NCBI GenBank assembly: GCA_944393275.1
Contig: CALXZQ010000002.1
Span: 1-43,886, forward strand
DNA length: 43,886 nucleotides
DNA from: an uncultured Clostridia bacterium
GTDB lineage: Bacteria > Bacillota > Clostridia > TANB77 > CAG-508
Direction: 5' to 3'
Positions 1 through 43,886 of this stretch are shown here, one piece after another. Position numbers and translations under genes: made by a program. The notes under the pieces were generated by a model, which saw only the letters and a list, made by a program, of their open reading frames with translations, was not told the origin of the DNA and searched no databases. Each line of letters opens with the position of its first letter. Position 1 is the first letter of the stretch.

Positions 1-38
1 GAACCTACTATTTTTCTTTACTATATAATTAACTAGAT

Positions 39-365
39 TTATATAATTAAAATATTAATAATATCACTAATATTTATATTTTCACTTTTATTAATTTGTA
101 TTTTCTTTTTATTATAGTTTATATTGGTTACTATTCCACTTATCTCATTGTATGTTCTGTTTTTATAGAATTTAATTATAACATTACTTCCTCTTTCTAT
201 TCTATTAAAAATATTATCTAGTTCATTTAAAGTTTCTTCAGATAACTCTTTCTTTTCTTCATATTCAATTTCTTTTTCCCTAAGGGCTTCCTGTAATCCC
301 TTTAAAGCATCGAAAGGTAAAAATTGTTTTGCCCTTGCAATTCTATTAATTAGCATTATGACCAC
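39..365 (-). CDS. YolD-like protein
   Basis: 108-aa ORF overlapping the stop of the upstream polymerase gene. The N-terminal ...AKQFLPFDALKGL... resembles the YolD family that accompanies UvrX/UmuC-type polymerases. Confidence 0.55.
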   Translation of the reverse strand: MVIMLINRIARAKQFLPFDALKGLQEALREKEIEYEEKKELSEETLNELDNIFNRIERGSNVIIKFYKNRTYNEISGIVTNINYNKKKIQINKSENINISDIINILII

Positions 366-1602
366 CTACTAACTTATTCCTTAATATTGTTGTTGCGCCT
401 TCTTCCAAGTCCATACCTCTAATTATTGTATTTTTTCCCATTCTATTTTTTATATTAGACATTGTAAGTTCTATTTTTCTTTCTTTATCAATTTTCTCTT
501 GATTTATAAATAAATTTAATTGTACATTTTCTGTTTTTATTACATTTGTAAAGTTTATCCCAATTCTTCTTACTGCAACATTTCTATCTGTTGTTTTGTC
601 ATATATTTCTAAGAAACTCTTTAATAACTCGGAATATACATTTGTACAATTGTTTATTCTTTTAGTTCCTCCTGTAGCTTTAATTGCATCTTTTGAATAA
701 CCTATATATAGTTCAACTGTATCTGTTACTAAATTATTTTCTATAAGTCTTAAACTACCCAATTCAACCATTTCTTTCAATACTAATCTTGCTTTTTCAA
801 AAGAATAATCTTTAAACAAAACCTGGCTATTGGAAATTGAATTTGTCTTTGGTTTATATGCTTTAATATCGGCAATAGTACAGCTTTCTTTTCCCCACGA
901 ATGATCTATCAAATATTCTGCATTTACTCCAAATTCTTTATATAATTTTCGTTGGTCTGCATGAGCTACATCATACATACTAAATATTCTCAATCTATTT
1001 AGTCTTTTCTCTATTCCTTTTCCTATCTGCCAGAAATCTGTTAGTGGTTTATGATGCCATAATTCCTTTTTGTATTTTTCTTCATCTAAATACCCTATAT
1101 TTGTTGCACTATGTTTTGCTGTAATATCTAATGCAATTTTGGCTAAATACATATTAGTTCCTATTCCGGAAGTAGCAGTAATTCCATAAGTTTTGTAAAT
1201 ATCTTTAATTATCATTTTAGCTAATTCAATCGGATTCAGCTTATACAATTTTAGATAATTAGTAACATCCATAAATGCTTCATCTATTGAATATACATGT
1301 ATATCTTCTTTTGCAAAGTATTTAAGGTAAATAGCATAGATATTAGCCGAATATTCTATATATTTTTTCATTCTTGGCATTGCTGCAATAAATTTTATAT
1401 TTGGTGGTATTTCATAGATTCTACATCTATTTTTAACACCTAACATTTTCATTCTTGGAGATATAGCTAAACATATTGTACCTTTTCCTCTGCTTGTATC
1501 TGCCACCACTAAATTTGTATTAAATGGATCTAATCCCCTTTCAATACATTCAACAGAAGCATAAAAAGTTTTTAAATCTATACATAAGTAATATTTCTGC
1601 AT
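346..1602 (-). CDS. Y-family (UmuC/ImpB/UvrX-like) translesion DNA polymerase
   Basis: The track ORF 346..1611 starts at GTG. A better ATG at 1602 follows GGAGTGAGG. YLCIDLKTFYASVE ... VYSIDEAFMDVT is the Y-family catalytic core. Confidence 0.85.
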   Translation of the reverse strand: MQKYYLCIDLKTFYASVECIERGLDPFNTNLVVADTSRGKGTICLAISPRMKMLGVKNRCRIYEIPPNIKFIAAMPRMKKYIEYSANIYAIYLKYFAKEDIHVYSIDEAFMDVTNYLKLYKLNPIELAKMIIKDIYKTYGITATSGIGTNMYLAKIALDITAKHSATNIGYLDEEKYKKELWHHKPLTDFWQIGKGIEKRLNRLRIFSMYDVAHADQRKLYKEFGVNAEYLIDHSWGKESCTIADIKAYKPKTNSISNSQVLFKDYSFEKARLVLKEMVELGSLRLIENNLVTDTVELYIGYSKDAIKATGGTKRINNCTNVYSELLKSFLEIYDKTTDRNVAVRRIGINFTNVIKTENVQLNLFINQEKIDKERKIELTMSNIKNRMGKNTIIRGMDLEEGATTILRNKLVGGHNAN

Positions 1603-1660
1603 TGACCTCACTCCAAATTTTTAATACTAAAATTATTATAGCATTATTTTTGGGTTTTGT

Positions 1661-1672
1661 AAACATTTGTTT
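1661..1672. promoter_or_regulatory. Degenerate LexA (Cheo-box-like) operator candidate
   Basis: AAAC-ATTT-GTTT lies about 60 nt upstream of the polymerase start, versus Firmicutes GAAC-N4-GTTC. The two half-sites are each one base off. Confidence 0.3.
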
Positions 1673-1703
1673 GTAATGTACATTAATTAATATTTTCTAT
1701 CAG

Positions 1704-1742
1704 AAAATCATAACCGCACATAAAATGTGCGGTTATGATTTT
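1704..1742. terminator. Bidirectional hairpin terminator
   Basis: Perfect inverted repeat AAAATCATAACCGCACA / TGTGCGGTTATGATTTT with a 5-nt loop, flanked by A/T runs, between ORF 1772..2002 and the polymerase promoter region. Confidence 0.65.
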
Positions 1743-1771
1743 AAATAATATTTCATTTTAATCAATAATTT

Positions 1772-2176
1772 TTATTCTACTAAATTAGAAGTCTCTTCTA
1801 TCATGCTGTAGAAATCTTTCATATCAGCAGAGTTTTCATTAAATATGTATAATAATTTGCTACAAATAATAATTTTTTTATCTCCAGATATTACTTTATT
1901 AAATTTCTTTTCCAATTGTCCATTTTTTAGATTATTTATTAAATAATTATCTTGGTCAGGATTATAATTTAAATTAATTTCTTTAAGATACTCTTTAATC
2001 ATTATTTTTCTTTCTTTTACGAAATCATATGGATTGTTTGGATCTTCTTAATATATAGACATTTCAGATATAAATATACCATTTATTGGCATATGATTAT
2101 TAATATATTCTTCTAAATTTGCTGAATCTGTAATATCTTCATAGCCAAGTAAAAATGCGATGTTAGCCTTGCTCAT
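1772..2176 (-). pseudogene. Hypothetical ORF interrupted by an in-frame TAA
   Basis: The ATG at 2176 opens a 42-codon frame (MSKANIAFLLGYEDITDS...). It hits TAA at 2048-2050 and continues in the same frame into track ORF 1772..2002. Confidence 0.35.
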
Positions 2177-2349
2177 AATATCTTGGTTCAAACTTTTTGG
2201 AACTCCCTTAACATTCAATCCTATATCACTGGCAAACTACTTTTTATGTTTTTCAGTTCTTCTGTGTTTTCTATTTCATTTATTTTATTTTCATTATTAA
2301 CTTTATCTTCTTGTATTATATCTGTTGAATCTTCACTTTTATTATTTTT

Positions 2350-3816
2350 TTATAATGATATTCTAATGAATGGAATTCCCTCTACTTTACTATTTTCTTC
2401 TGACCAATAATATAGTAGGCCCCCTAGACCATCATTTTTTTTGTTTAATTTTGCATACTCAAAGTAAGTCGCTTCCTCTTTGTTTTTTAAATTATATTTA
2501 TGTATGTAATATTTTTTATCTATATATAACACATCTTCTATGTAAGTTTCTCCATCACTATCCTTATTATATACTCTTATAAAATCTTTGTTGCCATTAG
2601 CAAATTCATCAAGTAATTCTTTATTGTTAGATTTTATTTCATTAGTTTCTAATACAATACAGCCATCTTCAATTGCTTGATCAATACCATAATCTCCTGA
2701 TGGCATAATTATCTTTTCAAATTTTTCTAGTTTATCAGATTCCCATGTTTTGGTAGATTTAATAAAAATATCTATATTTCCTCTTAATAATGATTTATCT
2801 ACTATTGCATACCATATATTATTTTCTTTTTCATAATTAGGATTTTCTTTTTGTTGCATTTTTATATATGTAGTATTTTCGTCTGCCACAATATCAGAAA
2901 TAGTTAAATCTTTCTCGTCTATTGGTCTCATATTTTCGTTAGCAATAATTATAAAAAAATTATTATCAAAGTCTACTTCTTCTATGCTTGGTAACTCTGT
3001 AATTCTCGTTTTATATGTTTGATATTCTTTATTGTTCTCTATAATTTTATAATACAATCTTGTTTTTTCATTATAAATCATATTATTCTCCATTAAACTT
3101 GTCTCATATGTTGTTATTCCATCTCCTATATCAAATAACCCTCTTGAGTTTATTTCTTCTTGCTTTTTTATGTATTTATTATATATTACATTTCCAGCAT
3201 AAGTTAGCCCTGTTAATATTATTGCAATGCTAATAATTAATATCAAAATTTTTAAAGTTCTATTCATCTCTTCAAATCCTTTCTTTATCATATTTCTTCT
3301 TAATTGTTTTTTACCTCTATGTATTAATGTTTTCGTATTTTGTATCGTTATTCCAAGTATGTTAGCTGTTTCTTCATAAGATAAACCTTCAATGCTAGTT
3401 AAATATATAGCATTTTTATATTTTTCCTCTAATTCTCCTATTGCACTTAACAGTTCTTTTTTTTCTTCTTTTTGTATTATAAGTTCAGCAACATCTTTAT
3501 CAACTTCATCTGAATCTATAGAAATATATTTAGTATTTATTTCATTTCTTCTTTTTTCTGTTTTTGTATAGTCTAATGCTTTACTTCTTGCTACTAAATA
3601 TATGTAATATTTAAATGAACTGTTTTCTTGCTTTCTGTTTTGTAAAATATATATAAATGTTTCTTGTGTTAGGTCTTCTGCTTTGTGATAATCTTTAACT
3701 ATATTAAAAATAAAATATTTAATTTTATCTTTATATTTATTGTAAAGATATTCAAATGCTTGTTTATCTCCATTTATATAATAATTATAAAATTTATTAT
3801 CTATATCTTCTTTCAT
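2350..3816 (-). CDS. ECF-type sigma-70 factor fused through one TM helix to an anti-sigma-type ectodomain
   Basis: Residues 1-180 carry sigma regions 2 and 4 (DLTQETFIYI, YEETANILGITIQNTKTLIHRGKKQL). A TM helix (ILILIISIAIILTGLTYAG) follows, then an ectodomain paralogous to the three anti-sigmas at 15.6-21.1 kb. SD GAAGGAGG precedes the ATG. Confidence 0.8.
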   Translation of the reverse strand: MKEDIDNKFYNYYINGDKQAFEYLYNKYKDKIKYFIFNIVKDYHKAEDLTQETFIYILQNRKQENSSFKYYIYLVARSKALDYTKTEKRRNEINTKYISIDSDEVDKDVAELIIQKEEKKELLSAIGELEEKYKNAIYLTSIEGLSYEETANILGITIQNTKTLIHRGKKQLRRNMIKKGFEEMNRTLKILILIISIAIILTGLTYAGNVIYNKYIKKQEEINSRGLFDIGDGITTYETSLMENNMIYNEKTRLYYKIIENNKEYQTYKTRITELPSIEEVDFDNNFFIIIANENMRPIDEKDLTISDIVADENTTYIKMQQKENPNYEKENNIWYAIVDKSLLRGNIDIFIKSTKTWESDKLEKFEKIIMPSGDYGIDQAIEDGCIVLETNEIKSNNKELLDEFANGNKDFIRVYNKDSDGETYIEDVLYIDKKYYIHKYNLKNKEEATYFEYAKLNKKNDGLGGLLYYWSEENSKVEGIPFIRISL

Positions 3817-3835
3817 TTATCCTCCTTCATATATA

Positions 3836-3863
3836 TAGAAGATTAATCACTAAAAAAGTTTCA
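3836..3863 (-). promoter_or_regulatory. ECF-type promoter copy 5 (TGAAAC-N16-CTTCTA)
   Basis: Minus strand reads TGAAAC TTTTTTAGTGATTAAT CTTCTA, about 20 nt upstream of the start of the fused sigma gene. Confidence 0.55.
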
Positions 3864-4140
3864 CTTTTATATGTATTAGTTTTGTTGCGGTATAATTTTC
3901 TCTAATATCCTGCTTAAATTCTACATTAAACATTCAATTATTGCTCTATACTTATTCATTCTCTTTGTAATTTCATCTCATTCTCAATAATTTCATTTAT
4001 TAATTTAACATGTATATTTATACAAATTATAACACATTATTTTTTATACTAATTAAATAAATTACTAATAAAGAGGATCTTTTAAAATAGAAATATAAGA
4101 TAAAAAAGAAGTTATATTTAGCATAAGTTCTTATAACGCA

Positions 4141-4189
4141 AAATAACATTCTAAATTAAAGCAACTAGCTTACATTTAGAATGTTATTT
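4141..4189 (-). terminator. Hairpin downstream of ArdC-like gene
   Basis: A 16-bp perfect inverted repeat (AAATAACATTCTAAAT / ATTTAGAATGTTATTT) with a 17-nt loop in an AT-rich spacer. Confidence 0.45.
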
Positions 4190-4237
4190 CTTTATTTATT
4201 ATATTTTTCAATCAATTTATGATGCAAATTTAAATTC

Positions 4238-5068
4238 TTACACTTCAAAATTTTCAAGTTCTTGTATAAATTGATAGGCACATTTTTGTATTTTTGTTCC
4301 TAAATCAATTACAATTTTCGGATCTCCTTTAGCCCATTTTGTAATATAGTTAAAACTGCAAAGTGATGTATCTAAATTAAAATTATCTGCTACTATATAT
4401 GCAATGGATTCGACAAATACTTCTGATAGATTTCTGTCTGTTTTATAATCAAAATTATCATATAATCCATGTGCAAGTTCATGAAGTAACACAGAAGCTT
4501 TATCATCAATAGAAAGTGATTTCTTAATCACAATTTCATTTTCTTTTGGACTATAATAACCTTGTACAGTACCATTGAGCTCCTTCTCATATACTGGGAA
4601 TTTACTAAATCTTTTTAATTTCTCATAAAACTCATTCATATTATTAGTATCTAGTCTAGTAGTTTGCATTGGTATTGGTTCACCTAAAGTTTGTGATATA
4701 TCATAAACATATACATATCTGTATGCATTATATTCAATAGTCTTAGTTGTTTCTACTTCTTCCCCATCAACTATATCTATAACTTTTTTATTATATTTTC
4801 TATGCAATGGTGCAATAATAAAAATTTTTTTTGCATCATTTATAATTTCTCTTTTTAATTTTAACCATTTAGCTTTTCCTGCCACTCTTGTGGCATCTGG
4901 AAATTGACTAAAAATTAAAACGAGGTTATTAAAACTATAACCTCTAAAATTTTTCTGAAACTTTAAGAACTTCTTATATTCCCCACTATCTACAATGGCT
5001 TGTACATTTAGTACAACTCTTTCAAAAATTTCTTTTGTCTTATTTTCCTTATTCTGTTTATTATACAT
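4238..5068 (-). CDS. ArdC-like antirestriction protein (ssDNA-binding N-domain plus zincin protease motif)
   Basis: YSFNNLVLIFSQFPDATRVAGKAKWLKLKREI resembles the ArdC N-terminal domain. HELAHGLYD is an HExxH metalloprotease motif. Confidence 0.7.
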   Translation of the reverse strand: MYNKQNKENKTKEIFERVVLNVQAIVDSGEYKKFLKFQKNFRGYSFNNLVLIFSQFPDATRVAGKAKWLKLKREIINDAKKIFIIAPLHRKYNKKVIDIVDGEEVETTKTIEYNAYRYVYVYDISQTLGEPIPMQTTRLDTNNMNEFYEKLKRFSKFPVYEKELNGTVQGYYSPKENEIVIKKSLSIDDKASVLLHELAHGLYDNFDYKTDRNLSEVFVESIAYIVADNFNLDTSLCSFNYITKWAKGDPKIVIDLGTKIQKCAYQFIQELENFEV

Positions 5069-5071
5069 AGC

Positions 5072-6526
5072 CTAAGCAGCTCCTTTCAATACATTTTGTT
5101 CCCATTTATATAAAAATTGTAATTGCTTTTCATTAGGAGCATCATTATTTTTTATTCTACTTTGTACAACTTTGCTATTCTTTACTTCAACAGTAACAAG
5201 AGATTTGTTTTGATTTTTAATATCTCTCATTAAGTAAATATCACAAATACCACTCGCATATTTTTCTGCATATGTTTGTACACAATTGTTTTGTTGTATA
5301 CTTTCATTTTTCAGCTCTTTTAATGATTTAGCAGGAAAAATAATAAATTTATCATTTTGATATTTGTTTATTAATAATTTTTTACTTCTTTTTATAATTG
5401 CTTTTTGGATAGCTTTTTCATTTTGAATTTTGTATAGTTGTTTCAATTTATCATGTTCTTCCTCTAGCTTTTTAGGAAAAGCATATCTGTTATTTTTTAA
5501 ATCAAATCCAAGAAGTTTTGCAAATCTTAAATAATCTTTATATATGTAAGTTCGTATTTTTCCACGATGCATTTTAGAATATTTAATAAAACGATTTAGG
5601 CTAATATAATTTGAAATTTCTTCTAAGTCATCAATATTATCTCCATAGTGTATAAATTTTTCTAAATACCTTATTTTTTGAATATTTTTTTCTTTTAGTA
5701 ATCTTAAGATTTTTAATTGCCTATATGTTATATTGTTTCTACGCATAAATGGATAAAAATCTTTTGAAACACCAAAACTTTCTTGAAATGAACCATTATC
5801 ATAGAATCTATTTGCACTTAATGCTAAATTATATAATTTCATTTTTGTTAAAAGTTCAACTTTATGTATATCATATTTATGTTCTAATAAACTTGATAAA
5901 TCAATATAAGTAGAATGTTTTGCTAAATTCCATATACAAGAATATTTATATTCTGTATTTTTTAATATACTTTTTAAGTTATTTGAAAAAACTATCGAAT
6001 AGTCAATTAGTGAATAATTCCTTATATATTTTCTCCATTTTGTTGGATCAAAATAATAACTATGATGGATATAATTATAGCATTGACATCTTGAAACTCT
6101 ATCATTTACAAAGATTTCTCTATAATAACTTTTATTTATTATTTCTCTTGCAAACTCAACTACAGAAGAATGATGTTCATGAAGATTATCTATAATTGTT
6201 TTCAATTCAAAATATCTAATTACAAATGTATCATCAACTATATCTAAAATAGATAAGTAATCCTTAAATTCATAAGATTTTAGATTACTTCTTTTAATTA
6301 AATATTTATTATGACAGTTTGGACATTTTATCTCTTCATTTATCTTTTTTGCGCTAATGAATTGATGATGACAATTTGTACAAAAACATTTATTTTTTCT
6401 TGATTTTATAATTAAGTTATGATTTATTTCTTGTTTTTTTACAAAATTATTCCATCCTTTAGGAGGATATGGAGAATCGTCTAAAATTCTAAAAATTTTT
6501 TTATATGCAACTTTTACATAACCCAT
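5072..6526 (-). CDS. PcfJ-like protein
   Basis: 484 aa. N-terminal Cys4 ribbon (CFCTNCHH...CPNCHNKY). The C-terminal NNCVQTYAEKYASGICDIYLMR...LVTVEV block resembles the PcfJ family of Gram-positive conjugative plasmids. Confidence 0.6.
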   Translation of the reverse strand: MGYVKVAYKKIFRILDDSPYPPKGWNNFVKKQEINHNLIIKSRKNKCFCTNCHHQFISAKKINEEIKCPNCHNKYLIKRSNLKSYEFKDYLSILDIVDDTFVIRYFELKTIIDNLHEHHSSVVEFAREIINKSYYREIFVNDRVSRCQCYNYIHHSYYFDPTKWRKYIRNYSLIDYSIVFSNNLKSILKNTEYKYSCIWNLAKHSTYIDLSSLLEHKYDIHKVELLTKMKLYNLALSANRFYDNGSFQESFGVSKDFYPFMRRNNITYRQLKILRLLKEKNIQKIRYLEKFIHYGDNIDDLEEISNYISLNRFIKYSKMHRGKIRTYIYKDYLRFAKLLGFDLKNNRYAFPKKLEEEHDKLKQLYKIQNEKAIQKAIIKRSKKLLINKYQNDKFIIFPAKSLKELKNESIQQNNCVQTYAEKYASGICDIYLMRDIKNQNKSLVTVEVKNSKVVQSRIKNNDAPNEKQLQFLYKWEQNVLKGAA

Positions 6527-6942
6527 TATTTTTGCACCTCCTGAAATAGTGTAATTTGATTATCTTCTAATTGTTTTTCTTCAGATATTTTTTCTTTATT
6601 TGTTTCTTCTTCTTTTGTCTTTTTCTTATTTGCTTTCTCTACTACTTCTGCAGGTGTAGTGAGTATGCCTTTTTTAGACTTTATTCCTAATTCATCATTA
6701 CTTTTTAAAAAATAATTAATAGCCCATGTATAAACAAGTTTGTCTGCCACCATTGCTACATTGTTCTTTGATTTTTGCTTTGCTTTACTACATATGTAAT
6801 CGTACATTTCTTGAATAGATTTTTCTTCATTATTGAATTTTTCATATAAGTCAATTCTTGTTTTTAAATACTCAAAAATTGAAGAAACATTGTAATCGTT
6901 CATTTCTAGCACTTGCATTTGCAATTTTTCTATTCCTTCCAT
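6526..6942 (-). CDS. PcfK-like protein
   Basis: 138 aa, directly upstream of and overlapping the PcfJ-like gene. Its size, N-terminal helical region and Lys/Glu-rich tail resemble PcfK-like proteins. Confidence 0.5.
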   Translation of the reverse strand: MEGIEKLQMQVLEMNDYNVSSIFEYLKTRIDLYEKFNNEEKSIQEMYDYICSKAKQKSKNNVAMVADKLVYTWAINYFLKSNDELGIKSKKGILTTPAEVVEKANKKKTKEEETNKEKISEEKQLEDNQITLFQEVQK

Positions 6943-6962
6943 AACAGTTCTCCTTTCAGTTT

Positions 6963-7355
6963 TTATGATACTTTTTTAAACCTTTTAAAAATCTCATTTT
7001 CGTTTTTTTCAATTTTCATATATAAGTTGTATTTATTTAATCCATATTTATTGATTTTATTTTGTTTTTCATTTTGCACAGCAGCTAATACACTTTCTAG
7101 TTCAGTAAAATCATAAAAATAACAAATAAGGCCATCTTTTACAATGACCTTATCTCCAACATAATCTTTTATAATATTAAATCTATAATTATATTTTTTC
7201 TTTCCTAGATGATCAGCTATTCTGATACCACAAGAAAGTCCATAATCAAGTTTTAGATATATTGAACTGGTAGAATGTGCATTATATTGATGTACTATAA
7301 AGCCTATAGAAATTAATCTTCGAGTTAAATTATCTGCAATTTCACTACCATTCAT
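6963..7355 (-). CDS. Hypothetical protein
   Basis: 130-aa ORF in operon context, start overlapping the upstream stop. No motif recognised with confidence. Confidence 0.5.
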   Translation of the reverse strand: MNGSEIADNLTRRLISIGFIVHQYNAHSTSSIYLKLDYGLSCGIRIADHLGKKKYNYRFNIIKDYVGDKVIVKDGLICYFYDFTELESVLAAVQNEKQNKINKYGLNKYNLYMKIEKNENEIFKRFKKVS

Positions 7356-7630
7356 TATGCTACCTCTTTCTCTACTTGACTACTTTGTAAATACTTTTGC
7401 TTGTCAATCTTTTCTGTGATTAATTTTAAACTTGCTTTTATAAATTCTACTTTGTCCTCTGGTATATCTATTTCTGACACTCTTGCAATTTTTTCTCCAT
7501 GTGCAGTAGGAGCAGCTACTAAATCTCCTATTTTTACTGGTATAGCTGTATAATAACTATATGCTTTACCACCAAATGTTTTAGGCACAAAATTGTCTTC
7601 GTATTTTACACTTATAATATTGGTTACCAT
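7355..7630 (-). CDS. Hypothetical protein
   Basis: Track ORF 7355..7654. An internal ATG at 7630 follows GGAGGATAAATAGT and sits just after the upstream stop. Confidence 0.5.
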   Translation of the reverse strand: MVTNIISVKYEDNFVPKTFGGKAYSYYTAIPVKIGDLVAAPTAHGEKIARVSEIDIPEDKVEFIKASLKLITEKIDKQKYLQSSQVEKEVA

Positions 7631-7631
7631 A

Positions 7632-7973
7632 CTATTTATCCTCCATTTCTTCATAATAATCTTTTAATTCTTCATATAATGAATCTTTTCTCTGTAATAC
7701 ATAAAATCCTAACATTGGATGAATGCTAATTTTAATTACATCATCTTTATTAGGATATGTTTTATTAATTTCTTCAATTAACATTGTTGCTTCATTAACT
7801 ATAAATTCTATCTCTTCTTCATCAATTTCATTTTTTGGATTATGTACATATTCAATTTGTTCTTTTAAATTTTCAATTACATCCTTAACTTTTCCAATAA
7901 TCGACTCATCATCATTTTTTAAGAACTTGTCAGAACATATTTTATTAAAATACTTATTTATTAATTCTTGCAT
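7632..7973 (-). CDS. Hypothetical acidic protein
   Basis: Track ORF 7632..7979 (TTG). The ATG at 7973 follows GGAGGTTGGTT. Confidence 0.5.
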   Translation of the reverse strand: MQELINKYFNKICSDKFLKNDDESIIGKVKDVIENLKEQIEYVHNPKNEIDEEEIEFIVNEATMLIEEINKTYPNKDDVIKISIHPMLGFYVLQRKDSLYEELKDYYEEMEDK

Positions 7974-7995
7974 AACCAACCTCCACTAAAATTAT

Positions 7996-8418
7996 TTAAA
8001 ATGGTAAATCATCACCATTAGAAATAAATTCTTCAGATGTGTTTTTCTCTTTTAGTTCTTCGCTAACAACTTCTTGTGTATTATCTTTTTCTACTTTCTT
8101 AAAACTATCTGCTAAATATATTTCCTCAGCGACAACTTCAGTAACATATCTTTTTATACCATTTTTATCTTCAAAATTTCTATTTTGTAATCTTCCTGAT
8201 ATGCACACTTGAAGCCCTTGTTTTAAATATTTTTCTACAAATTCTGCAAGTTTAGAATAAGAGACAACATTAAAGAAATCTGCTTGTCTTTCTTCTCCTA
8301 CTTTGGTAAATCTTCTGTTTACAGCAAGAGAAAAAGTGGCTATTTTCATATCATTCGTTTGTGAATACTTTATTTCAGGTGCTTTTGTTAACCTACCCAA
8401 TAATATTGATTTATTCAT
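7996..8418 (-). CDS. ssb: Single-stranded DNA-binding protein
   Basis: OB-fold N-terminus (ILLGRLTKAPEIKY...FFNVVSYSKLAEF...GRLQNRNFEDK) and the canonical acidic tail ending DDLPF. Confidence 0.9.
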   Translation of the reverse strand: MNKSILLGRLTKAPEIKYSQTNDMKIATFSLAVNRRFTKVGEERQADFFNVVSYSKLAEFVEKYLKQGLQVCISGRLQNRNFEDKNGIKRYVTEVVAEEIYLADSFKKVEKDNTQEVVSEELKEKNTSEEFISNGDDLPF

Positions 8419-8437
8419 ATCTTAATCTATCCTTTCT

Positions 8438-8719
8438 CTAATCTTTTCTAATAACTATAAATTTAATTATACTTTCTGTTATTCTATAGATCCTTTCAAG
8501 TTCTCTTATTGAATTTTCTAATCCTTCAAATTCTATTAAATAATAATAGCCATAGCTGTTCCCTTTAATTTCATAAGCCAATTTTTTCTTACCTAATTCT
8601 TCAGCTTTTAAAATATTTCCATTAATCGAAATATAATCTTTTATTGTTTTAACTACTTTATTTTTTTCTTCCTCTGTAATTTCTTCCTTCATTATAAAAA
8701 TAGTTTCATATTCTCTCAT
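8438..8719 (-). CDS. Ribosomal protein bS6 paralogue
   Basis: 93 aa. MREYETIFIMKEEITEEEKNKVV...LGKKKLAYEIKG...GYYYLIEFEG...ITESIIKFIVIRKD follows the bS6 pattern (compare B. subtilis MRKYEVMYIIRP...WGKRRLAYEI...IIRHIVV). It lies immediately upstream of ssb, as in the chromosomal rpsF-ssb arrangement. Confidence 0.75.
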   Translation of the reverse strand: MREYETIFIMKEEITEEEKNKVVKTIKDYISINGNILKAEELGKKKLAYEIKGNSYGYYYLIEFEGLENSIRELERIYRITESIIKFIVIRKD

Positions 8720-15283: not shown

Positions 15284-15312
15284 TAGATCATTAAAAATAT
15301 AAAAAAGTTTCA
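15284..15312 (-). promoter_or_regulatory. ECF-type promoter copy 1 (TGAAAC-N17-GATCTA)
   Basis: The minus strand reads TGAAAC TTTTTTATATTTTTAAT GATCTA upstream of the peptidase gene. 38 bp (15289-15326) are identical to 18989-19026. Confidence 0.6.
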
Positions 15313-15410
15313 TTTTTTATTAATTTTATCATTTATATTTTATCTGTATAGAATTATTTTAATTATATCATATTTAGATTTATTTTCTCAATAATATTAT
15401 TTTTATATTA

Positions 15411-15587
15411 TTAGTAGTTATAGTTTACTTTAAAAAAATGTTGCCCACCGACCTTAGTTCTGTCTTTTTCATTCCTTTCTGCATATAAAATACTGCCATT
15501 TCTTGCTGAGTTGTTTTTAACTATATATTTTCATGTATGAATATGAATATCAGTAACACCTGCATATCCATAAGTTATAATAAACAT
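15411..15587 (-). pseudogene. Short gene remnant with in-frame TGA
   Basis: MFIITYGYAGVTDIHIHT, then TGA, then 39 more in-frame codons (KYIVKNNSARNGSILYAERNEKDRTKVGGQHFFKVNYNY). No SD was seen. Confidence 0.25.
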
Positions 15588-15632
15588 ACTATTTTTATAT
15601 TGTATCTAATATATTAAAGATTATATGCATTT

Positions 15633-16694
15633 TTACATAGTTACTAATATTAAACTATGCGTATTTACCTCTCCTTCTACATCATTTAGATAGTACCAGT
15701 AAAGATTATCTTTCCAATGTTCTTTTATTATATATTTGTATATATACGTTCCTACTCTGTTTGGATCTGACCTTTTTCCTCCAATTGTCCTTCTATTTAT
15801 AATAAATCTATCTATATTACTTCTATATTGTATATCTATTATTTGTAATACTCCATATGCGGCATAGTCACAAATCCTTAGACTTGAATCTATACCTTTT
15901 TTACCTTTTTCAATTAATTCATCTAAAGCATACTTATTTTCTGATATTATAGTGCTTTCATTTAAGTAAATATCTCCTTGCTTTATTGCTTCAAGTACCA
16001 TACACCCATCATTTATTGCTTGTTCTTTTGTATACTCTTCTGTTATATCCTCAATTGGAGTAATTCCCTCGATTCGCAAAGATGATGAATCTTTCTCTAT
16101 TTTTATTGTTTCTCTTAATAGTGTTTTATCTACCACAACACATATTTCTGTCCTTAGTTTATTAAAGTCTGGATTTTCTTTTGGTGCTAACTTTACAATG
16201 GTATTGTTTTCATCTGCAGTAATTTCTACTACTGTTAAATCATTCTCCCAAGAATTTATTAACGAAACTTCTCCATGAGTAATTAATAGTAAAAAGTTTT
16301 TATTAAAATCTATTTCTGAACTTTCAGGTAATTCATTTACTTTTTCTTTACATTCTTTGTATTTTTCTTCATCTGCTATTATTTTATAATACATATTACT
16401 TTCTTTATCATAACTCATGCCTGCTGTAATTTCATCTGAATACCAACCATTTTCATTTCTAAATAGCCCTCTTAAATTTATATCATCATCTTTCTTTATA
16501 TATGTATTATATATTTGTGTACCAGCTAAAACTATTCCCATTGTACCAACTATCGTTATAACCAGAGTTGCGACTATTTTTAATAATTTGTTTTCATTCA
16601 TATTTTTTTCATCGCCAATTTTATTTAAAATCATCTTATAATCATTATCCATTTGTTCTTTCAAGTATTCACTCATTTCCTTTTTAGTTTTCAT
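15633..16694 (-). CDS. Anti-sigma factor paralogue 3 (single TM, DUF4362-like ectodomain)
   Basis: Track ORF 15633..16724. The ATG at 16694 follows GGAGGTGA and overlaps the sigma stop. It has a TM helix (LLKIVATLVITIVGTMGIVLAG) and an ectodomain with YYKII...ELP...DFNKNF...NPDF...VVDKTLLRE...AINDGCMVLE. Confidence 0.7.
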   Translation of the reverse strand: MKTKKEMSEYLKEQMDNDYKMILNKIGDEKNMNENKLLKIVATLVITIVGTMGIVLAGTQIYNTYIKKDDDINLRGLFRNENGWYSDEITAGMSYDKESNMYYKIIADEEKYKECKEKVNELPESSEIDFNKNFLLLITHGEVSLINSWENDLTVVEITADENNTIVKLAPKENPDFNKLRTEICVVVDKTLLRETIKIEKDSSSLRIEGITPIEDITEEYTKEQAINDGCMVLEAIKQGDIYLNESTIISENKYALDELIEKGKKGIDSSLRICDYAAYGVLQIIDIQYRSNIDRFIINRRTIGGKRSDPNRVGTYIYKYIIKEHWKDNLYWYYLNDVEGEVNTHSLILVTM

Positions 16695-17223
16695 GTCTTT
16701 CACCTCCCAAATAGGATATTTCAATATTTTTTAACATTCTGTATAAATTACTTTTTACTGTGGATTCTTTTATACTTAATTCTTTAGATATTTCCTTAAA
16801 TGACATATCTAATATAAAATGCAAGTAAAATATTTTAGCAGTATCGTGATTTTTAGAATTTATATAGTTTAAAATCTTATTAACATTGTCTTTTGTAATA
16901 AAATCTTCCTCTAAATTTATTCCTGAATCTATATCCATCATTTCTTCATTATCATATTCCTGAGGCATAGGAATAGATTTTAATTTTTGGTTAGAATTGT
17001 TCTTTCGAATTATTTTATTTTTTGCAATAAAAAAAATATATGAATGATAGTTAATAATTTTCTTCTTATCACTTAAAACTTTATATAATTCTAAATATGT
17101 TTCTTGCAAAATATCCTCTGCATCTTCTATATTTCTGCAATTACATATTATATATCTAAGGCTATTTGTGTATGTCTCTTTATATATTTTCTCAAACTTT
17201 TTTAATATACTTTTGTTTCTCAT
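16684..17223 (-). CDS. ECF-type sigma-70 factor paralogue 3
   Basis: Track ORF 16684..17253. The real start is probably the ATG at 17223 behind AGAAAGGAG, because the promoter -10 lies inside the track extension. It carries ILQETYLELY (region 2) and FKEISKELSIKESTVKSNLYRMLK (region 4). Confidence 0.8.
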   Translation of the reverse strand: MRNKSILKKFEKIYKETYTNSLRYIICNCRNIEDAEDILQETYLELYKVLSDKKKIINYHSYIFFIAKNKIIRKNNSNQKLKSIPMPQEYDNEEMMDIDSGINLEEDFITKDNVNKILNYINSKNHDTAKIFYLHFILDMSFKEISKELSIKESTVKSNLYRMLKNIEISYLGGERHEN

Positions 17224-17245
17224 ATTTTTCTCCTTTCTATCTATA

Positions 17246-17274
17246 AAGAGCATAATTATTTAAAAAAAGTTTCA
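17246..17274 (-). promoter_or_regulatory. ECF-type promoter copy 3 (TGAAAC-N17-GCTCTT)
   Basis: Minus strand reads TGAAAC TTTTTTTAAATAATTAT GCTCTT upstream of sigma paralogue 3. Confidence 0.6.
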
Positions 17275-17326
17275 TTTTTTATAATTTTTTTAAATTGATA
17301 GAGTTTATATTTTTCTATATAAATTA

Positions 17327-17357
17327 AGCAGGTGCAGTTTTTAGTACCGGACCTGCT
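17327..17357 (-). terminator. Hairpin between sigma modules
   Basis: AGCAGGT / ACCTGCT stem with a 17-nt loop, 40 nt downstream of the anti-sigma stop at 17395. The U-tail is weak. Confidence 0.4.
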
Positions 17358-17394
17358 AAATTTTTCTTATAATTTTTCTATATTATTTTTTAAT

Positions 17395-18429
17395 CTATAT
17401 TTTTATATTAAATAAAGGTGTCATATATTCTTTTTGATTATCATTATTATATCCATAGGAATAAATATTTTGATCTTTAAAAATATGTTGTTTTATTAAA
17501 TATTTAAATGAATATGTTGATATTTCTGAATTACTAGATTCTAACTTTTTTAAAATAAAAATTTCGTTATAATATTGTAAATCATATATTCTTACTTTTT
17601 CATTCTCTTTATGATAGATTCTTAAATAACAATCTATTTTATTTTGTGATTTTTCAATAATTTCATCTAATGCATATTTATTCTCTGATAAAACATTTTC
17701 ATTCTCTATTACAAAACATCCATCCTTTATAGCATCCTCTTTGCTATAGTCTTTTTTTAATTTATCTAATGGCACAACATTATCATTTTTTATTTCTGCA
17801 GGTATAAATTTTATTTCTACTTCTTCCCTTAATAATGATTTATCTACTATTGCATATATTAGTTCTTCAGCTTCATCATAATTAGGATTTTCTTTCTGTT
17901 TTAATGTAATGTAACTTTTACTTTCATCAACATCAATATTAGATATTGTTAGATCATTTTTATGTGGTACATCTATACCTGTTTTTGCAATTATTATTAT
18001 AAAATTATTATTAAAATCAGTTTCCGTCATTTCTGGTAATTCATTAATTTTATTTCTAAATTCATCATATTCATTTGTATTTGTTACTATTTTATAATAT
18101 ACTCCTACTTCTTCTGAATAAATCATATTTTGATGAACATAGGCACTTGAATGCATTCCTTCAAAAGGTCCTTCTTTTATAATAAATAATGATTCAGGTT
18201 CTATTTGCTCTTGTTTTTTTATATATTCATTATAAATTTTTGTACTAGCAAAAACTATTCCTGTTGCACCTAGTATGGTAATAAGCAAAGTTGCAACTAC
18301 TTTTAATACTCTATTATTCTTTGGCATAGCTTCATCTTCTTTTATTTTTTCTATTATAGAATTATACATATCCTTTTCATTATAATATTTACTTTCAAAG
18401 TATTCTTTCAATTCATTTTTACTTTCCAT
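17395..18429 (-). CDS. Anti-sigma factor paralogue 2
   Basis: Track ORF 17395..18444. The ATG at 18429 follows GGAGGTGA. It has a TM helix (VLKVVATLLITILGATGIVFAS) and the same ectodomain family (YYKIV...ELPEMTETDFNNNF...NPNYDE...AIVDKSLLRE...AIKDGCFVIE). Confidence 0.7.
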   Translation of the reverse strand: MESKNELKEYFESKYYNEKDMYNSIIEKIKEDEAMPKNNRVLKVVATLLITILGATGIVFASTKIYNEYIKKQEQIEPESLFIIKEGPFEGMHSSAYVHQNMIYSEEVGVYYKIVTNTNEYDEFRNKINELPEMTETDFNNNFIIIIAKTGIDVPHKNDLTISNIDVDESKSYITLKQKENPNYDEAEELIYAIVDKSLLREEVEIKFIPAEIKNDNVVPLDKLKKDYSKEDAIKDGCFVIENENVLSENKYALDEIIEKSQNKIDCYLRIYHKENEKVRIYDLQYYNEIFILKKLESSNSEISTYSFKYLIKQHIFKDQNIYSYGYNNDNQKEYMTPLFNIKI

Positions 18430-43188: not shown

Positions 43189-43886
43189 CTAATTAATTTC
43201 ATCTCTTGATTCCAATTCCTCATCTGGTATAATTTCTATTTGCTTATATTCTTCGACATTAGGTACTACTAAATCTTCATCTGTCACGGTATTAAATTCA
43301 ATAGAATGTTCAGACATTCCATTATAAGTATTTGAAGTATTAGTTGAAATACTTCTTAAAGGAATACCTGTATCTTTATCAATATATTGAATGTTATTAC
43401 CAAAGCTAAATTTTTCTGAATTAACTATACTACTAGGTATTATTCTATAACATTCTTTTCCATTTATAATTTCTGTATTTATTCTTGAAAAGATACTTCT
43501 TAACAAGATCTCTGAAAAGTTCTGTTTTTCTGGCACTAGCAGATCTTCAAATTTATTGTAATCCGTAGTAAAATAAACCTTAGTATTTGACACATCATCT
43601 TCACTATACCAATATGTCTTTTGTCCATCATAATACAAAATCATATCTATAGGATAAATAACTTTATGGTTATTTTTATCATAGACAGAACATATATACA
43701 TATACTTATCATCTTTTCTATAAATTTCTTGTGAATAAATAGCATCTTCTGAATAGCCATCAATTCTATAATGATAATTATTAGCTTCTCTTACATTATA
43801 TAATTTTTCATAACAATTTGATAAAATTAAGTATTTTCTTGTTGTAGAAACAGTAAATGTGATTATAACAAGGAGTAGAATAAATA
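43189..43886 (-). CDS. Membrane-anchored protein with LolA-like/DUF4367-like ectodomain, 5' end outside window
   Basis: The frame stays open to the window edge upstream of the track Met (…LLLVIITFTVSTTRKYL… is a TM helix). A beta-rich ectodomain follows. Confidence 0.45.
   Translation of the reverse strand, partial: FILLLVIITFTVSTTRKYLILSNCYEKLYNVREANNYHYRIDGYSEDAIYSQEIYRKDDKYMYICSVYDKNNHKVIYPIDMILYYDGQKTYWYSEDDVSNTKVYFTTDYNKFEDLLVPEKQNFSEILLRSIFSRINTEIINGKECYRIIPSSIVNSEKFSFGNNIQYIDKDTGIPLRSISTNTSNTYNGMSEHSIEFNTVTDEDLVVPNVEEYKQIEIIPDEELESRDEIN

What the first reader, a model, noticed from the sequence alone, without database searches (positions are those of the whole stretch)
2350..3816. Sigma factor covalently fused to the sensor ectodomain of its own anti-sigma family
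The 488-aa ORF starts as a complete ECF sigma (regions 2 and 4). About 10 residues after region 4 it enters a TM helix, and it then carries an ectodomain clearly paralogous to the three separate anti-sigmas (shared YNKYIKKQEEI..., YYKII..ELP...DFDNNF, NPNYEK...AIVDKSLLR, AIEDGCIVLE). The roughly 45-aa cytoplasmic sigma-binding segment present in the unfused anti-sigmas is absent. The result is a membrane-tethered sigma that would need proteolytic release or local action at the membrane.
Basis: seen in the sequence. Interest (0 to 1): 0.65.

Follow-up and report, generated by a model that had tools for sequence, protein, structure and literature searches.

The report
Membrane-tethered sigma factor with swappable sensor
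This gene encodes a transcription-initiation (sigma) factor joined in one protein to a membrane anchor and an outside-facing sensor domain; it belongs to a conserved family in uncultured gut Clostridia in which one sigma-plus-anchor part carries different sensors, so a single protein may carry a signal across the membrane.

Summary
ORF 2350..3816(-) is one uninterrupted 488-aa frame: ECF sigma core (σ2 24-90, σ4 120-176), a 10-residue tether, one TM helix (187-208), then a 280-aa ectodomain 39% identical (E 1e-53) to the three stand-alone anti-sigma-like proteins nearby.

It is not an assembly artefact. Over 100 protein clusters keep the full architecture at 44-60% identity. Contigs from two other studies cover the junction with no differences.

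The fusion is not a local accident. The sigma+tether+TM part (55-68% identical) carries at least five ectodomain types in 73 loci from gut Clostridia MAGs. No partner gene is conserved beside it.

Three further features are conserved:
- an ECF-type promoter (TGAAAC-N16-tGT…TATAT) 49-52 nt before the ATG in 64 of 65 distinct upstream regions;
- a signal-peptidase-like V/T-Y-A motif at the outer TM end;
- an internal Shine-Dalgarno (AAGAAAGGA, held by a rare AAG codon in 64/65) plus ATG just before the TM, so an exported ectodomain may also be made alone.

Most likely mechanism (inferred): an autoregulated, membrane-held pro-sigma released by signal peptidase and then a site-2 protease. It is a new variant of ECF sigmas with membrane extensions, differing in having no anti-sigma domain.

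The parts
3835..3863 (-). ECF-type promoter: -35 TGAAAC (3858-3863), 17-nt spacer, TTCTAT (3835-3840)
   Evidence: Read directly from the sequence. The same motif lies 49-52 nt before the ATG in 64 of 65 distinct upstream regions of family members.
3821..3828 (-). Ribosome-binding site GAAGGAGG of the full-length ORF
2350..3816 (-). 488-aa ORF (stop included): sigma, tether, TM helix and ectodomain
3547..3747 (-). Sigma region 2 (residues 24-90)
   Evidence: Pfam PF04542, E 8e-12. Mean top-residue frequency across the family is 0.82.
3289..3459 (-). Sigma region 4 (residues 120-176)
   Evidence: Pfam PF08281, E 5.5e-13. Foldseek matches sigma region 4 structures.
3259..3288 (-). Cytoplasmic tether (residues 177-186, IKKGFEEMNR; family consensus LKKGFDEMNK); the most conserved stretch of the family
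   Evidence: Mean top-residue frequency 0.86.
3277..3285 (-). Internal Shine-Dalgarno-like AAGAAAGGA (codons K178 K179 G180)
   Evidence: K178 is AAG in 64/65 genes against 15% background; it is the top synonymous outlier. G180 is GGA in 65/69.
3265..3267 (-). Conserved in-frame internal ATG (M184), 9 nt after the internal SD. Starting here gives a 305-aa signal-peptide-plus-ectodomain product.
   Evidence: The codon is ATG in 42/44 distinct sequences. A natural split allele is called as a separate gene from this ATG.
3193..3258 (-). Single transmembrane helix / signal-anchor (residues 187-208)
   Evidence: Hydropathy 2.4. AF2 predicts a continuous helix 158-213.
3196..3204 (-). T-Y-A (residues 205-207): signal-peptidase-I-like -3/-1 motif at the outer end of the TM
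   Evidence: Across the family, -3 is V/T/A in 78/80 and -1 is A in 77/80.
2752..3192 (-). Ectodomain subdomain 1 (residues 209-355), alpha/beta fold, with no family or fold match
   Evidence: AF2 model. Pfam and Foldseek found nothing.
2353..2691 (-). Ectodomain subdomain 2 (residues 376-488), weakly DUF4362-like beta-rich domain
   Evidence: DUF4362 scores E 0.011 in one type-A member, and 25.2 bits against a cut-off of 25 in the related type-E protein L041.
15633..21631 (-). Three sigma/anti-sigma-like gene pairs whose membrane proteins carry the paralogous ectodomain (15633-16724, 17395-18444, 20074-21111)
15284..22479 (-). Five further promoters of the same architecture, with -35 elements at 15312, 17274, 19012, 21696 and 22479

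Best explanation
The gene encodes a self-contained, single-pass (N-in, C-out) membrane-tethered ECF sigma factor.

Shown:
- A complete σ2-σ4 core is joined by a 10-residue, very conserved tether to a signal-anchor helix and an extracellular two-domain module.
- The sigma+tether+TM part is a conserved family in uncultured AT-rich gut Clostridia and carries at least five ectodomain types. Two of these show no detectable similarity to this one; two are distantly related to it.
- No partner gene is conserved next to it.
- Its promoter is a conserved ECF-type TGAAAC-N16-tGT…TATAT element.

Inferred:
- The sigma is made as an inactive pro-protein held at the membrane. AF2 draws the last σ4 helix, the tether and the TM as one continuous helix, which would press σ4 against the membrane.
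- A signal sensed by the ectodomain exposes the conserved V/T-Y-A site at the outer TM end to signal peptidase, as in RsiV and RsiP.
- A site-2 protease (RasP/RseP class, which also clears signal peptides) then cuts the stub.
- The freed sigma binds core RNA polymerase and transcribes its own promoter and similar ones.
- An internal Shine-Dalgarno plus ATG just before the TM probably also yields the exported ectodomain alone, which could act as a competitor or threshold-setter.
For: Architecture and homology.

Conservation of the fusion: more than 100 clusters of about 490 aa at 44-60% identity, and 79 loci in species-representative genomes.

Modularity: the N-terminal 208 residues are 50-68% identical across types A-E. 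Ectodomains B and C give no hit to A.

No conserved neighbour: the largest neighbour cluster holds 7 of 126 ORFs, and at least five of those seven are themselves sigma genes or further copies of this family.

Promoter: 64 of 65 distinct upstream regions carry TG[ACT]AAC[CT]TT at 49-52 nt from the ATG, against about 1 per 11 kb elsewhere in the loci.

Signal-peptidase-like motif.

Precedents: signal peptidase performs site-1 cleavage of RsiV and RsiP (PMC6066255, PMC8844934). S2P cleaves signal peptides, and SpoIVFB cleaves pro-σK directly (PMC10202637).

Internal SD and ATG. A natural split allele exists.

Independent sequence support across the junction.
Against: No proteolytic product, topology or promoter activity has been measured.

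The regex used pre-restricted the -2 and -1 residues, so only the -3 statistic is unbiased.

Whether these genomes encode an S2P could not be checked, because the genome search was shut.

After S2P cleavage the sigma would keep a hydrophobic C-terminal tail of the kind ClpXP recognises on anti-sigma stubs. This could destroy the sigma rather than activate it.

A positive-feedback promoter combined with constitutive signal-peptidase cleavage would run away, so a regulated step must exist; none has been identified.

The window copy has CTT where the family promoter consensus has tGT.
Confidence: 0.55

Rival explanations
1. The sigma works while still membrane-anchored, like ToxR, TcpP or CadC. 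It recruits RNA polymerase to promoters near the membrane, and ligand binding or oligomerisation of the ectodomain switches activity without cleavage.
For: There is no anti-sigma domain and no conserved partner gene. The tether is the most conserved segment, as expected if its geometry matters. Several family members occur per genome and in tandem, which would suit hetero-oligomerisation.
Against: The tether is only 10 residues and is predicted to be helical and continuous with σ4 and the TM. That leaves little room for the β-flap and -35 DNA at the membrane surface. The conserved V/T-Y-A cleavage-type motif has no role in this model. No membrane-anchored sigma factor active in place came up in the literature searched.
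Confidence: 0.2
2. The gene is mainly a two-product operon-in-one-frame. The important products are a free or short-lived sigma and an exported ectodomain translated from the internal SD/ATG. The fusion itself is a tolerated by-product of a lost stop codon.
For: The internal AAGAAAGGA-N9-ATG is kept by selection on synonymous sites. The product from M184 starts with a textbook signal peptide. A natural allele splits the gene into a 171-aa sigma and a 308-aa exported protein in 10 contigs. A soluble 189-aa relative ends at ...KKEGFEC.
Against: Of the roughly 73 complete ORFs read and more than 100 protein clusters, none has an in-frame stop in the tether; the only split form found is the frameshift allele about 14 codons upstream. 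The continuous frame is therefore itself under selection, and every sigma molecule must start life fused. The split allele arises from a 1-nt loss in an A7 run and truncates σ4, so it may be a defective variant.
Confidence: 0.15
3. The fusion is an assembly or sequencing artefact, or a recent pseudogene-like deletion within a local sigma/anti-sigma pair.
For: Other genes in the window look split (25368-27113, 37817-39462).
Against: The architecture is kept at 44-60% identity in more than 100 clusters. Contigs from other studies are identical. The ORF contains no CGG. The sigma part is only about 20% identical to the three paired sigmas.
Confidence: 0.02

Closest known systems
IutY of Pseudomonas putida (ECF243 sigma/anti-sigma hybrid)
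   Same: One polypeptide with an N-terminal ECF sigma, one TM segment and an extracytoplasmic C-terminal part. IutY is activated by regulated proteolysis through Prc and then RseP (PMC8999054, PMC10202637).
   Different: IutY keeps a FecR-type anti-sigma domain between the sigma and the TM and signals through a TonB-dependent receptor in a Gram-negative envelope. Here only 10-14 residues separate σ4 from the TM, no anti-sigma domain is present, and the host is a Gram-positive-type Clostridium.
ECF48/ECF52/ECF53 sigmas of Actinobacteria (for example SCO4117)
   Same: ECF sigma with a long C-terminal extension that contains TM helices and an extracellular sensing domain. Activation by proteolysis is predicted for these groups (PMC8999054, PMC5826349).
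   Different: Those extensions include a zinc-finger (ZAS-like) anti-sigma module and one or two TM helices. The sensor domains are unrelated. No modular swapping of ectodomains on one sigma+tether+TM part is described in the papers read.
σV-RsiV and σP-RsiP (Bacillus, Clostridioides)
   Same: A single-pass N-in membrane protein whose site-1 cut is made by signal peptidase just outside the TM after ligand binding, followed by RasP (PMC6066255, PMC8844934, PMC9044953). The family here keeps a -3/-1 signal-peptidase-type motif at the same place.
   Different: In those systems the sigma is a separate protein bound by the anti-sigma's cytoplasmic domain. Here the sigma itself is the cytoplasmic domain. 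No DUF4179 was detected.
pro-σK / SpoIVFB of Bacillus subtilis
   Same: The sigma factor itself, not an anti-sigma, is held inactive at a membrane and is the direct substrate of an S2P-family intramembrane protease (PMC10202637).
   Different: pro-σK has a short N-terminal pro-sequence, no true TM-plus-ectodomain, and is a group-3 sporulation sigma.
The three sigma/anti-sigma-like pairs in this window (15633-21631)
   Same: Same ectodomain family (33-38% identity), the same juxtamembrane motif, and the same promoter architecture.
   Different: They are two separate, translationally coupled genes. The membrane protein has a roughly 45-aa cytoplasmic head. Their sigmas are only distantly related to the fused one.

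Membership tests
ECF (group 4) sigma-70 family | σ2 and σ4 domains only, with no σ3 or σ1.1 | tested here: met
   Pfam r2 and r4_2 only. TIGR02937 scores 78.6 bits against a cut-off of 42.9. Foldseek matches AlgU, σE, SigW and SigH at E 5e-8 to 1e-4.
ECF (group 4) sigma-70 family | Autoregulated promoter with an AAC-containing -35 and a CGT-like -10 | tested here: met
   TGAAAC-N16-tGT…TATAT lies 49-52 nt before the ATG in 64 of 65 distinct upstream regions. This is sequence evidence only. The window copy has CTT in place of tGT.
ECF (group 4) sigma-70 family | Co-transcribed cognate anti-sigma gene (typical, not obligatory) | tested here: not met
   No neighbour family is conserved across the loci.
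ECF sigmas with fused anti-sigma-like membrane extension (IutY-type; ECF48/52/53) | C-terminal extension containing TM helix(es) and an extracytoplasmic domain | tested here: met
   One TM at 187-208 followed by a 280-aa C-terminal domain.
ECF sigmas with fused anti-sigma-like membrane extension (IutY-type; ECF48/52/53) | Anti-sigma domain (FecR-type or ZAS) between σ4 and the TM | tested here: not met
   Only 10-14 residues separate σ4 from the TM. No Pfam anti-sigma domain is present, and there is no Cys/His motif.
ECF sigmas with fused anti-sigma-like membrane extension (IutY-type; ECF48/52/53) | Activation by site-1 and site-2 proteolysis | not testable with these tools
   This needs western blots or protease mutants.
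Signal-peptidase-dependent RIP substrates (RsiV/RsiP type) | N-in single-pass topology with a signal-peptidase -3/-1 motif just outside the TM | tested here: met
   -3 is V/T/A in 78/80, -1 is A in 77/80, and +1 is G/T/A/S/V. The N-terminal flank has a net charge of about +7, against about +1 on the C-terminal flank (read from the sequence).
Signal-peptidase-dependent RIP substrates (RsiV/RsiP type) | DUF4179-type protective amphipathic helices after the cleavage site | tested here: inconclusive
   There is no DUF4179 hit. A conserved IYNxYIKKQ segment follows the site, but AF2 models it as partly helix and partly strand with modest confidence.
Pfam DUF4362 (C-terminal ectodomain subdomain) | Score at or above the Pfam gathering threshold (25 bits) | tested here: not met
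   The window protein gives no hit. One type-A relative scores E 0.011. The related type-E protein L041 scores 25.2 bits and L024 scores 22.4 bits. Homology is therefore likely but distant.

The most novel reading that the evidence does not exclude
This may be a modular one-protein transmembrane signalling system with no anti-sigma domain. Inactivity would come purely from being the N-terminal passenger of an internal signal peptide. Each export-and-processing event of the C-terminal domain (signal peptidase, then S2P) would release one sigma. An internally initiated, sigma-less copy of the same exported domain would tune the response. Several sensors with near-identical sigma cores and near-identical promoters would converge on one regulon in each genome.
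Probability: 0.3. Interest if true: 0.78.

Novelty: new variant of a known kind. Interest (0 to 1): 0.62.

Why it matters
ECF sigma signalling is normally described as a two-protein switch, sigma plus anti-sigma. The known fused forms still carry an anti-sigma domain.

A widespread family in which the sigma is wired directly to a signal-anchor, with interchangeable sensors and a conserved cleavage-type site, would show that membrane tethering alone can replace the anti-sigma. It would also provide a compact, orthogonal one-gene sensor-to-promoter module for synthetic biology.

It further points to how little-studied, small-genome gut Clostridia, and their conjugative elements, sense the outside world.

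Tried and rejected
- megablast of window 1-8000 against PLSDB plasmids gave no match.
- The genome search and the fetch from genomes were shut, so I could not look for S2P or signal peptidase genes, other family copies, or the 16S 3' end in the window's own genome.
- The ectodomain fold was not identified. Foldseek against the PDB gave nothing significant (best E 0.11, TM 0.16). A PDB sequence profile gave only one chance-level hit (E 0.039). Pfam gave nothing for the window copy.
- My recollection that subdomain 1 resembles PrcB_C found no tool support and is dropped.
- Ectodomains of types B and C gave no Pfam or PDB sequence match.
- The frameshift or assembly artefact reading was rejected.
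- I considered programmed -1/+1 frameshifting at the tether, because both alternative frames stop there and an SD-like element lies upstream. No canonical slippery heptamer is present in the window copy, so it was not pursued.
- A scan of locus flanks for extra promoter copies, to define a regulon, returned mainly further family genes in tandem.
- Contigs of runs X1 and X5 laid only as short fragments, even though those runs hold all sampled words. Only X7 and X8 were informative.

Full report
**What is there**

The window is very AT-rich (about 25% GC). Nearly all long ORFs lie on the minus strand and look like a conjugative element: coupling protein, VirB4-like ATPase, sortase, adhesins, ssb and an ArdC-like gene.

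ORF 2350..3816(-) is a single 488-aa frame preceded by GAAGGAGG. Its parts are:
- Residues 24-90 and 120-172 match Sigma70_r2 and Sigma70_r4_2.
- The whole N-terminal 19-175 passes the NCBIfam ECF superfamily model (78.6 bits, cut-off 42.9).
- The only strongly hydrophobic stretch is 187-208.
- Residues 185-454 align with the membrane protein 17395..18444 at 39% identity, E 1e-53.

**Is the fusion real?**

Yes, on four grounds:
- Alternative frames around the junction are closed.
- The ORF has no CGG. Earlier agents' notes on this genome link CGG to +1 shifts in other genes, so I checked.
- Logan contigs from two unrelated studies (runs X7 and X8) cover the sigma/TM junction with no differences or gaps.
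- Most decisively, a search of 5.8 billion proteins returned more than 100 clusters of about 490 aa that cover the whole query at 44-60% identity and carry the sigma Pfam domains. Their alignment is colinear through the tether and TM.

**Where it comes from**

A scan of one genome per species found 79 loci, almost all in MAGs labelled uncultured Clostridia or Clostridium sp. from human, chicken, rabbit and goat guts. Examples are Clostridium sp. CAG:389, 26_22 and UMGS1516.

Only 15 of the 73 complete ORFs carry this ectodomain (type A). The same N-terminal 208 residues (50-68% identical, E ≤ 1e-70) are joined to other C-terminal regions:
- 26 of type B, about 600 aa.
- 26 of type C, about 540 aa.
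- 3 of type D and 2 of type E.

Types B and C show no similarity to type A. Types D and E are distantly related to it.

Several MAGs hold two or more members, and L024 has three in tandem.

Conversely, a profile of the type-A ectodomain against 1.84 billion representatives finds 627 clusters. Most are 320-360-aa proteins in which the domain starts near residue 50-110, the unfused form. Only 4 of the top 150 are the roughly 470-494-aa fused form.

The sigma moiety is only about 20% identical to the three paired sigmas in the window (E 1e-3). It is closer to the sigma at 42684..43223 (27%, E 1e-11).

So this is not a local deletion inside a pair. An ectodomain typical of stand-alone membrane partners has been placed on a dedicated membrane-tethered sigma scaffold.

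**Features conserved across the sigma+tether+TM family**

(a) Promoter.
- In 64 of 65 distinct upstream regions, TG[ACT]AAC[CT]TT lies 49-52 nt before the ATG.
- The consensus is TGAAACTTTTTT.AaTtTtA.ttGT.TgTATATATGAAAGCAGG.
- Elsewhere in the 1.64 Mb of loci the short motif occurs about once per 11 kb.
- This is the -35 AAC / -10 (C/T)GT layout of Firmicute ECF promoters (general knowledge) and implies positive autoregulation.
- In the window the motif is at 3835-3863.
- Five more promoters of the same build precede the three sigma/anti-sigma-like pairs, a 610-aa surface protein gene and a Spo0A-like gene.
- In those five, TCTAC/TCTAT begins 19 nt after the -35; in the fused gene it begins after 18 nt.

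(b) Tether.
- Residues 177-186 (consensus LKKGFDEMNK) are the most conserved part of the protein: 0.86, against 0.82 for σ2 and 0.79 for σ4.

(c) TM end.
- Position -3 is V/T/A in 78/80, -2 is Y/F, -1 is A in 77/80, and +1 is small.
- The regex restricted -2 and -1, so only the -3 count is unbiased.
- This follows the -3/-1 rule of type I signal peptidase.

(d) No conserved neighbouring gene.

(e) Internal translation signal.
- K178 is AAG in 64/65 genes, although AAG is only 15% of Lys codons in these genes. It is the strongest synonymous outlier among 215 columns.
- G180 is GGA in 65/69, and rare codons are also kept at 175-176.
- Together these spell AAGAAAGGA, an 8-nt match to the extended Firmicute Shine-Dalgarno AGAAAGGAGG (general knowledge).
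- It lies 9 nt before the conserved in-frame ATG of M184 (ATG in 42/44).
- Translation from M184 would give MNRTLK, a hydrophobic core and TYA|G, which is a textbook signal peptide, followed by the ectodomain.
- One lineage (P0116; L085-L088; 10 contigs) has lost one A from an A7 run in σ4. There the gene is called as a 171-aa sigma plus a separate 308-aa protein starting at exactly this ATG.

**Structure**

- The ectodomain model (pLDDT 78.6) has two α/β-rich subdomains.
- It has no significant match in the PDB by fold or by sequence profile.
- The C-terminal subdomain is weakly DUF4362-like.
- In the full-length model (pLDDT 77.7) the last σ4 helix, the tether and the TM form one helix, 158-213.
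- The N-terminal part matches ECF sigma structures.

**Mechanism**

Shown: the architecture, its conservation, its modularity, the promoter motif, the cleavage-type motif and the internal SD/ATG.

Inferred: the sigma is made as a membrane-held pro-protein. Tethering through a short, probably rigid connector replaces an anti-sigma domain. The ectodomain controls access of signal peptidase to the V/T-Y-A site, as shown for RsiV and RsiP (PMC6066255, PMC8844934). An S2P then removes the stub; S2Ps also clear freed signal peptides and, in the case of SpoIVFB, cut pro-σK directly (PMC10202637). The released sigma drives its own promoter and related ones.

I give this about 0.55.

The main rival is action while still anchored, ToxR-style (0.2). 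A third reading treats the internally initiated exported domain and a free sigma as the real products (0.15). It is weakened because none of the complete ORFs or protein clusters examined has an in-frame stop in the tether; the only split form found is the frameshift allele. An artefact is essentially excluded (0.02).

**Comparison with known systems**

Reviews of ECF diversity list sigmas with membrane-spanning C-terminal extensions: IutY in ECF243, ECF48/52/53, and ECF263 with 5-7 TM helices. The extensions of IutY and ECF48/52/53 are described as fused anti-sigma factors containing a FecR-type or zinc-finger domain (PMC8999054, PMC7826278).

The present family meets the ECF core tests but fails the anti-sigma-domain test. 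It comes from uncultured Clostridia that are poorly represented in those classifications.

I therefore rate it a new variant of a known kind. Whether it already has an ECF group number could not be checked with the tools at hand.

Noticed in passing
window 16684-17253 and 18419-18991 (-): The first in-frame ATG of these two paired sigma genes lies only about 12 nt after the promoter -35. The real starts are probably the downstream ATGs (MRNKS..., MSTQK...), each preceded by AAAGGAG. That makes these sigmas about 179 aa, like the third one.
   Followed up: partly
window 15284-15312, 17246-17274, 18984-19012, 21668-21696, 22451-22479 (-): Five promoters share the build TG(A/C)A(A/T)C-T6-N11-12-TCTA(C/T). 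They lie in front of a 610-aa Big_2/peptidase-like surface protein, the three sigma/anti-sigma-like pairs and a Spo0A-like regulator. They suggest one element-borne regulon that may cross-talk with the fused sigma.
   Followed up: partly
L085:2940-3010 (also L086-L088): This is a natural allele of a close homologue. One A is lost from the A7 run in GGA AAA AAA CAA, which truncates σ4 at residue 171. The TM-plus-ectodomain part then becomes a separately called 308-aa gene. The allele is seen in 10 contigs from several samples.
   Followed up: partly
L024:~3900-8600; L029, L073: Tethered-sigma genes occur in tandem arrays, three in a row in L024 with ectodomain types C, E and D. Each has its own copy of the conserved promoter and GAAAGCAGG leader.
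   Followed up: partly
L026:6640-7824, L065:6640-7614, L075:6001-8082: Ectodomain types B and C (conserved NNLWVGTLDLAWK and NKVWxGTFNLVWNDFM motifs) have no Pfam or PDB sequence match. One long type-C variant ends in a DUF3221 domain.
   Followed up: partly
codons 26, 175 and 176 of the family (window about 3739-3741 and 3289-3294, -): Globally rare codons are kept across the family: N26 AAC in 49/59, I175 ATC in 30/66, L176 CTG in 26/69. This hints at further nucleotide-level signals, such as RNA structure or pausing, beyond the internal SD.
   Followed up: no
L052, ORF just downstream of the family gene: A soluble 189-aa sigma, 36% identical to the family's sigma part, ends at ...KKILKKEGFEC. 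That is exactly where the tether begins in the fused proteins, which suggests how the fusion arose.
   Followed up: no
window 25368-27113 and 37817-39462 (-): The coupling-protein and VirB4-like genes appear as two and three consecutive ORFs respectively. Earlier agents attribute this to +1 decoding at CGG. I verified only that the fused sigma ORF contains no CGG.
   Followed up: partly
L023 (JBJFGN010000105.1): A 2-kb contig carrying a type-D tethered sigma is binned in a MAG labelled Methanobrevibacter. This is almost certainly a binning error, since L022 from a 'Bacilli' MAG carries the same type-D gene with the same junction sequence and length.
   Followed up: no
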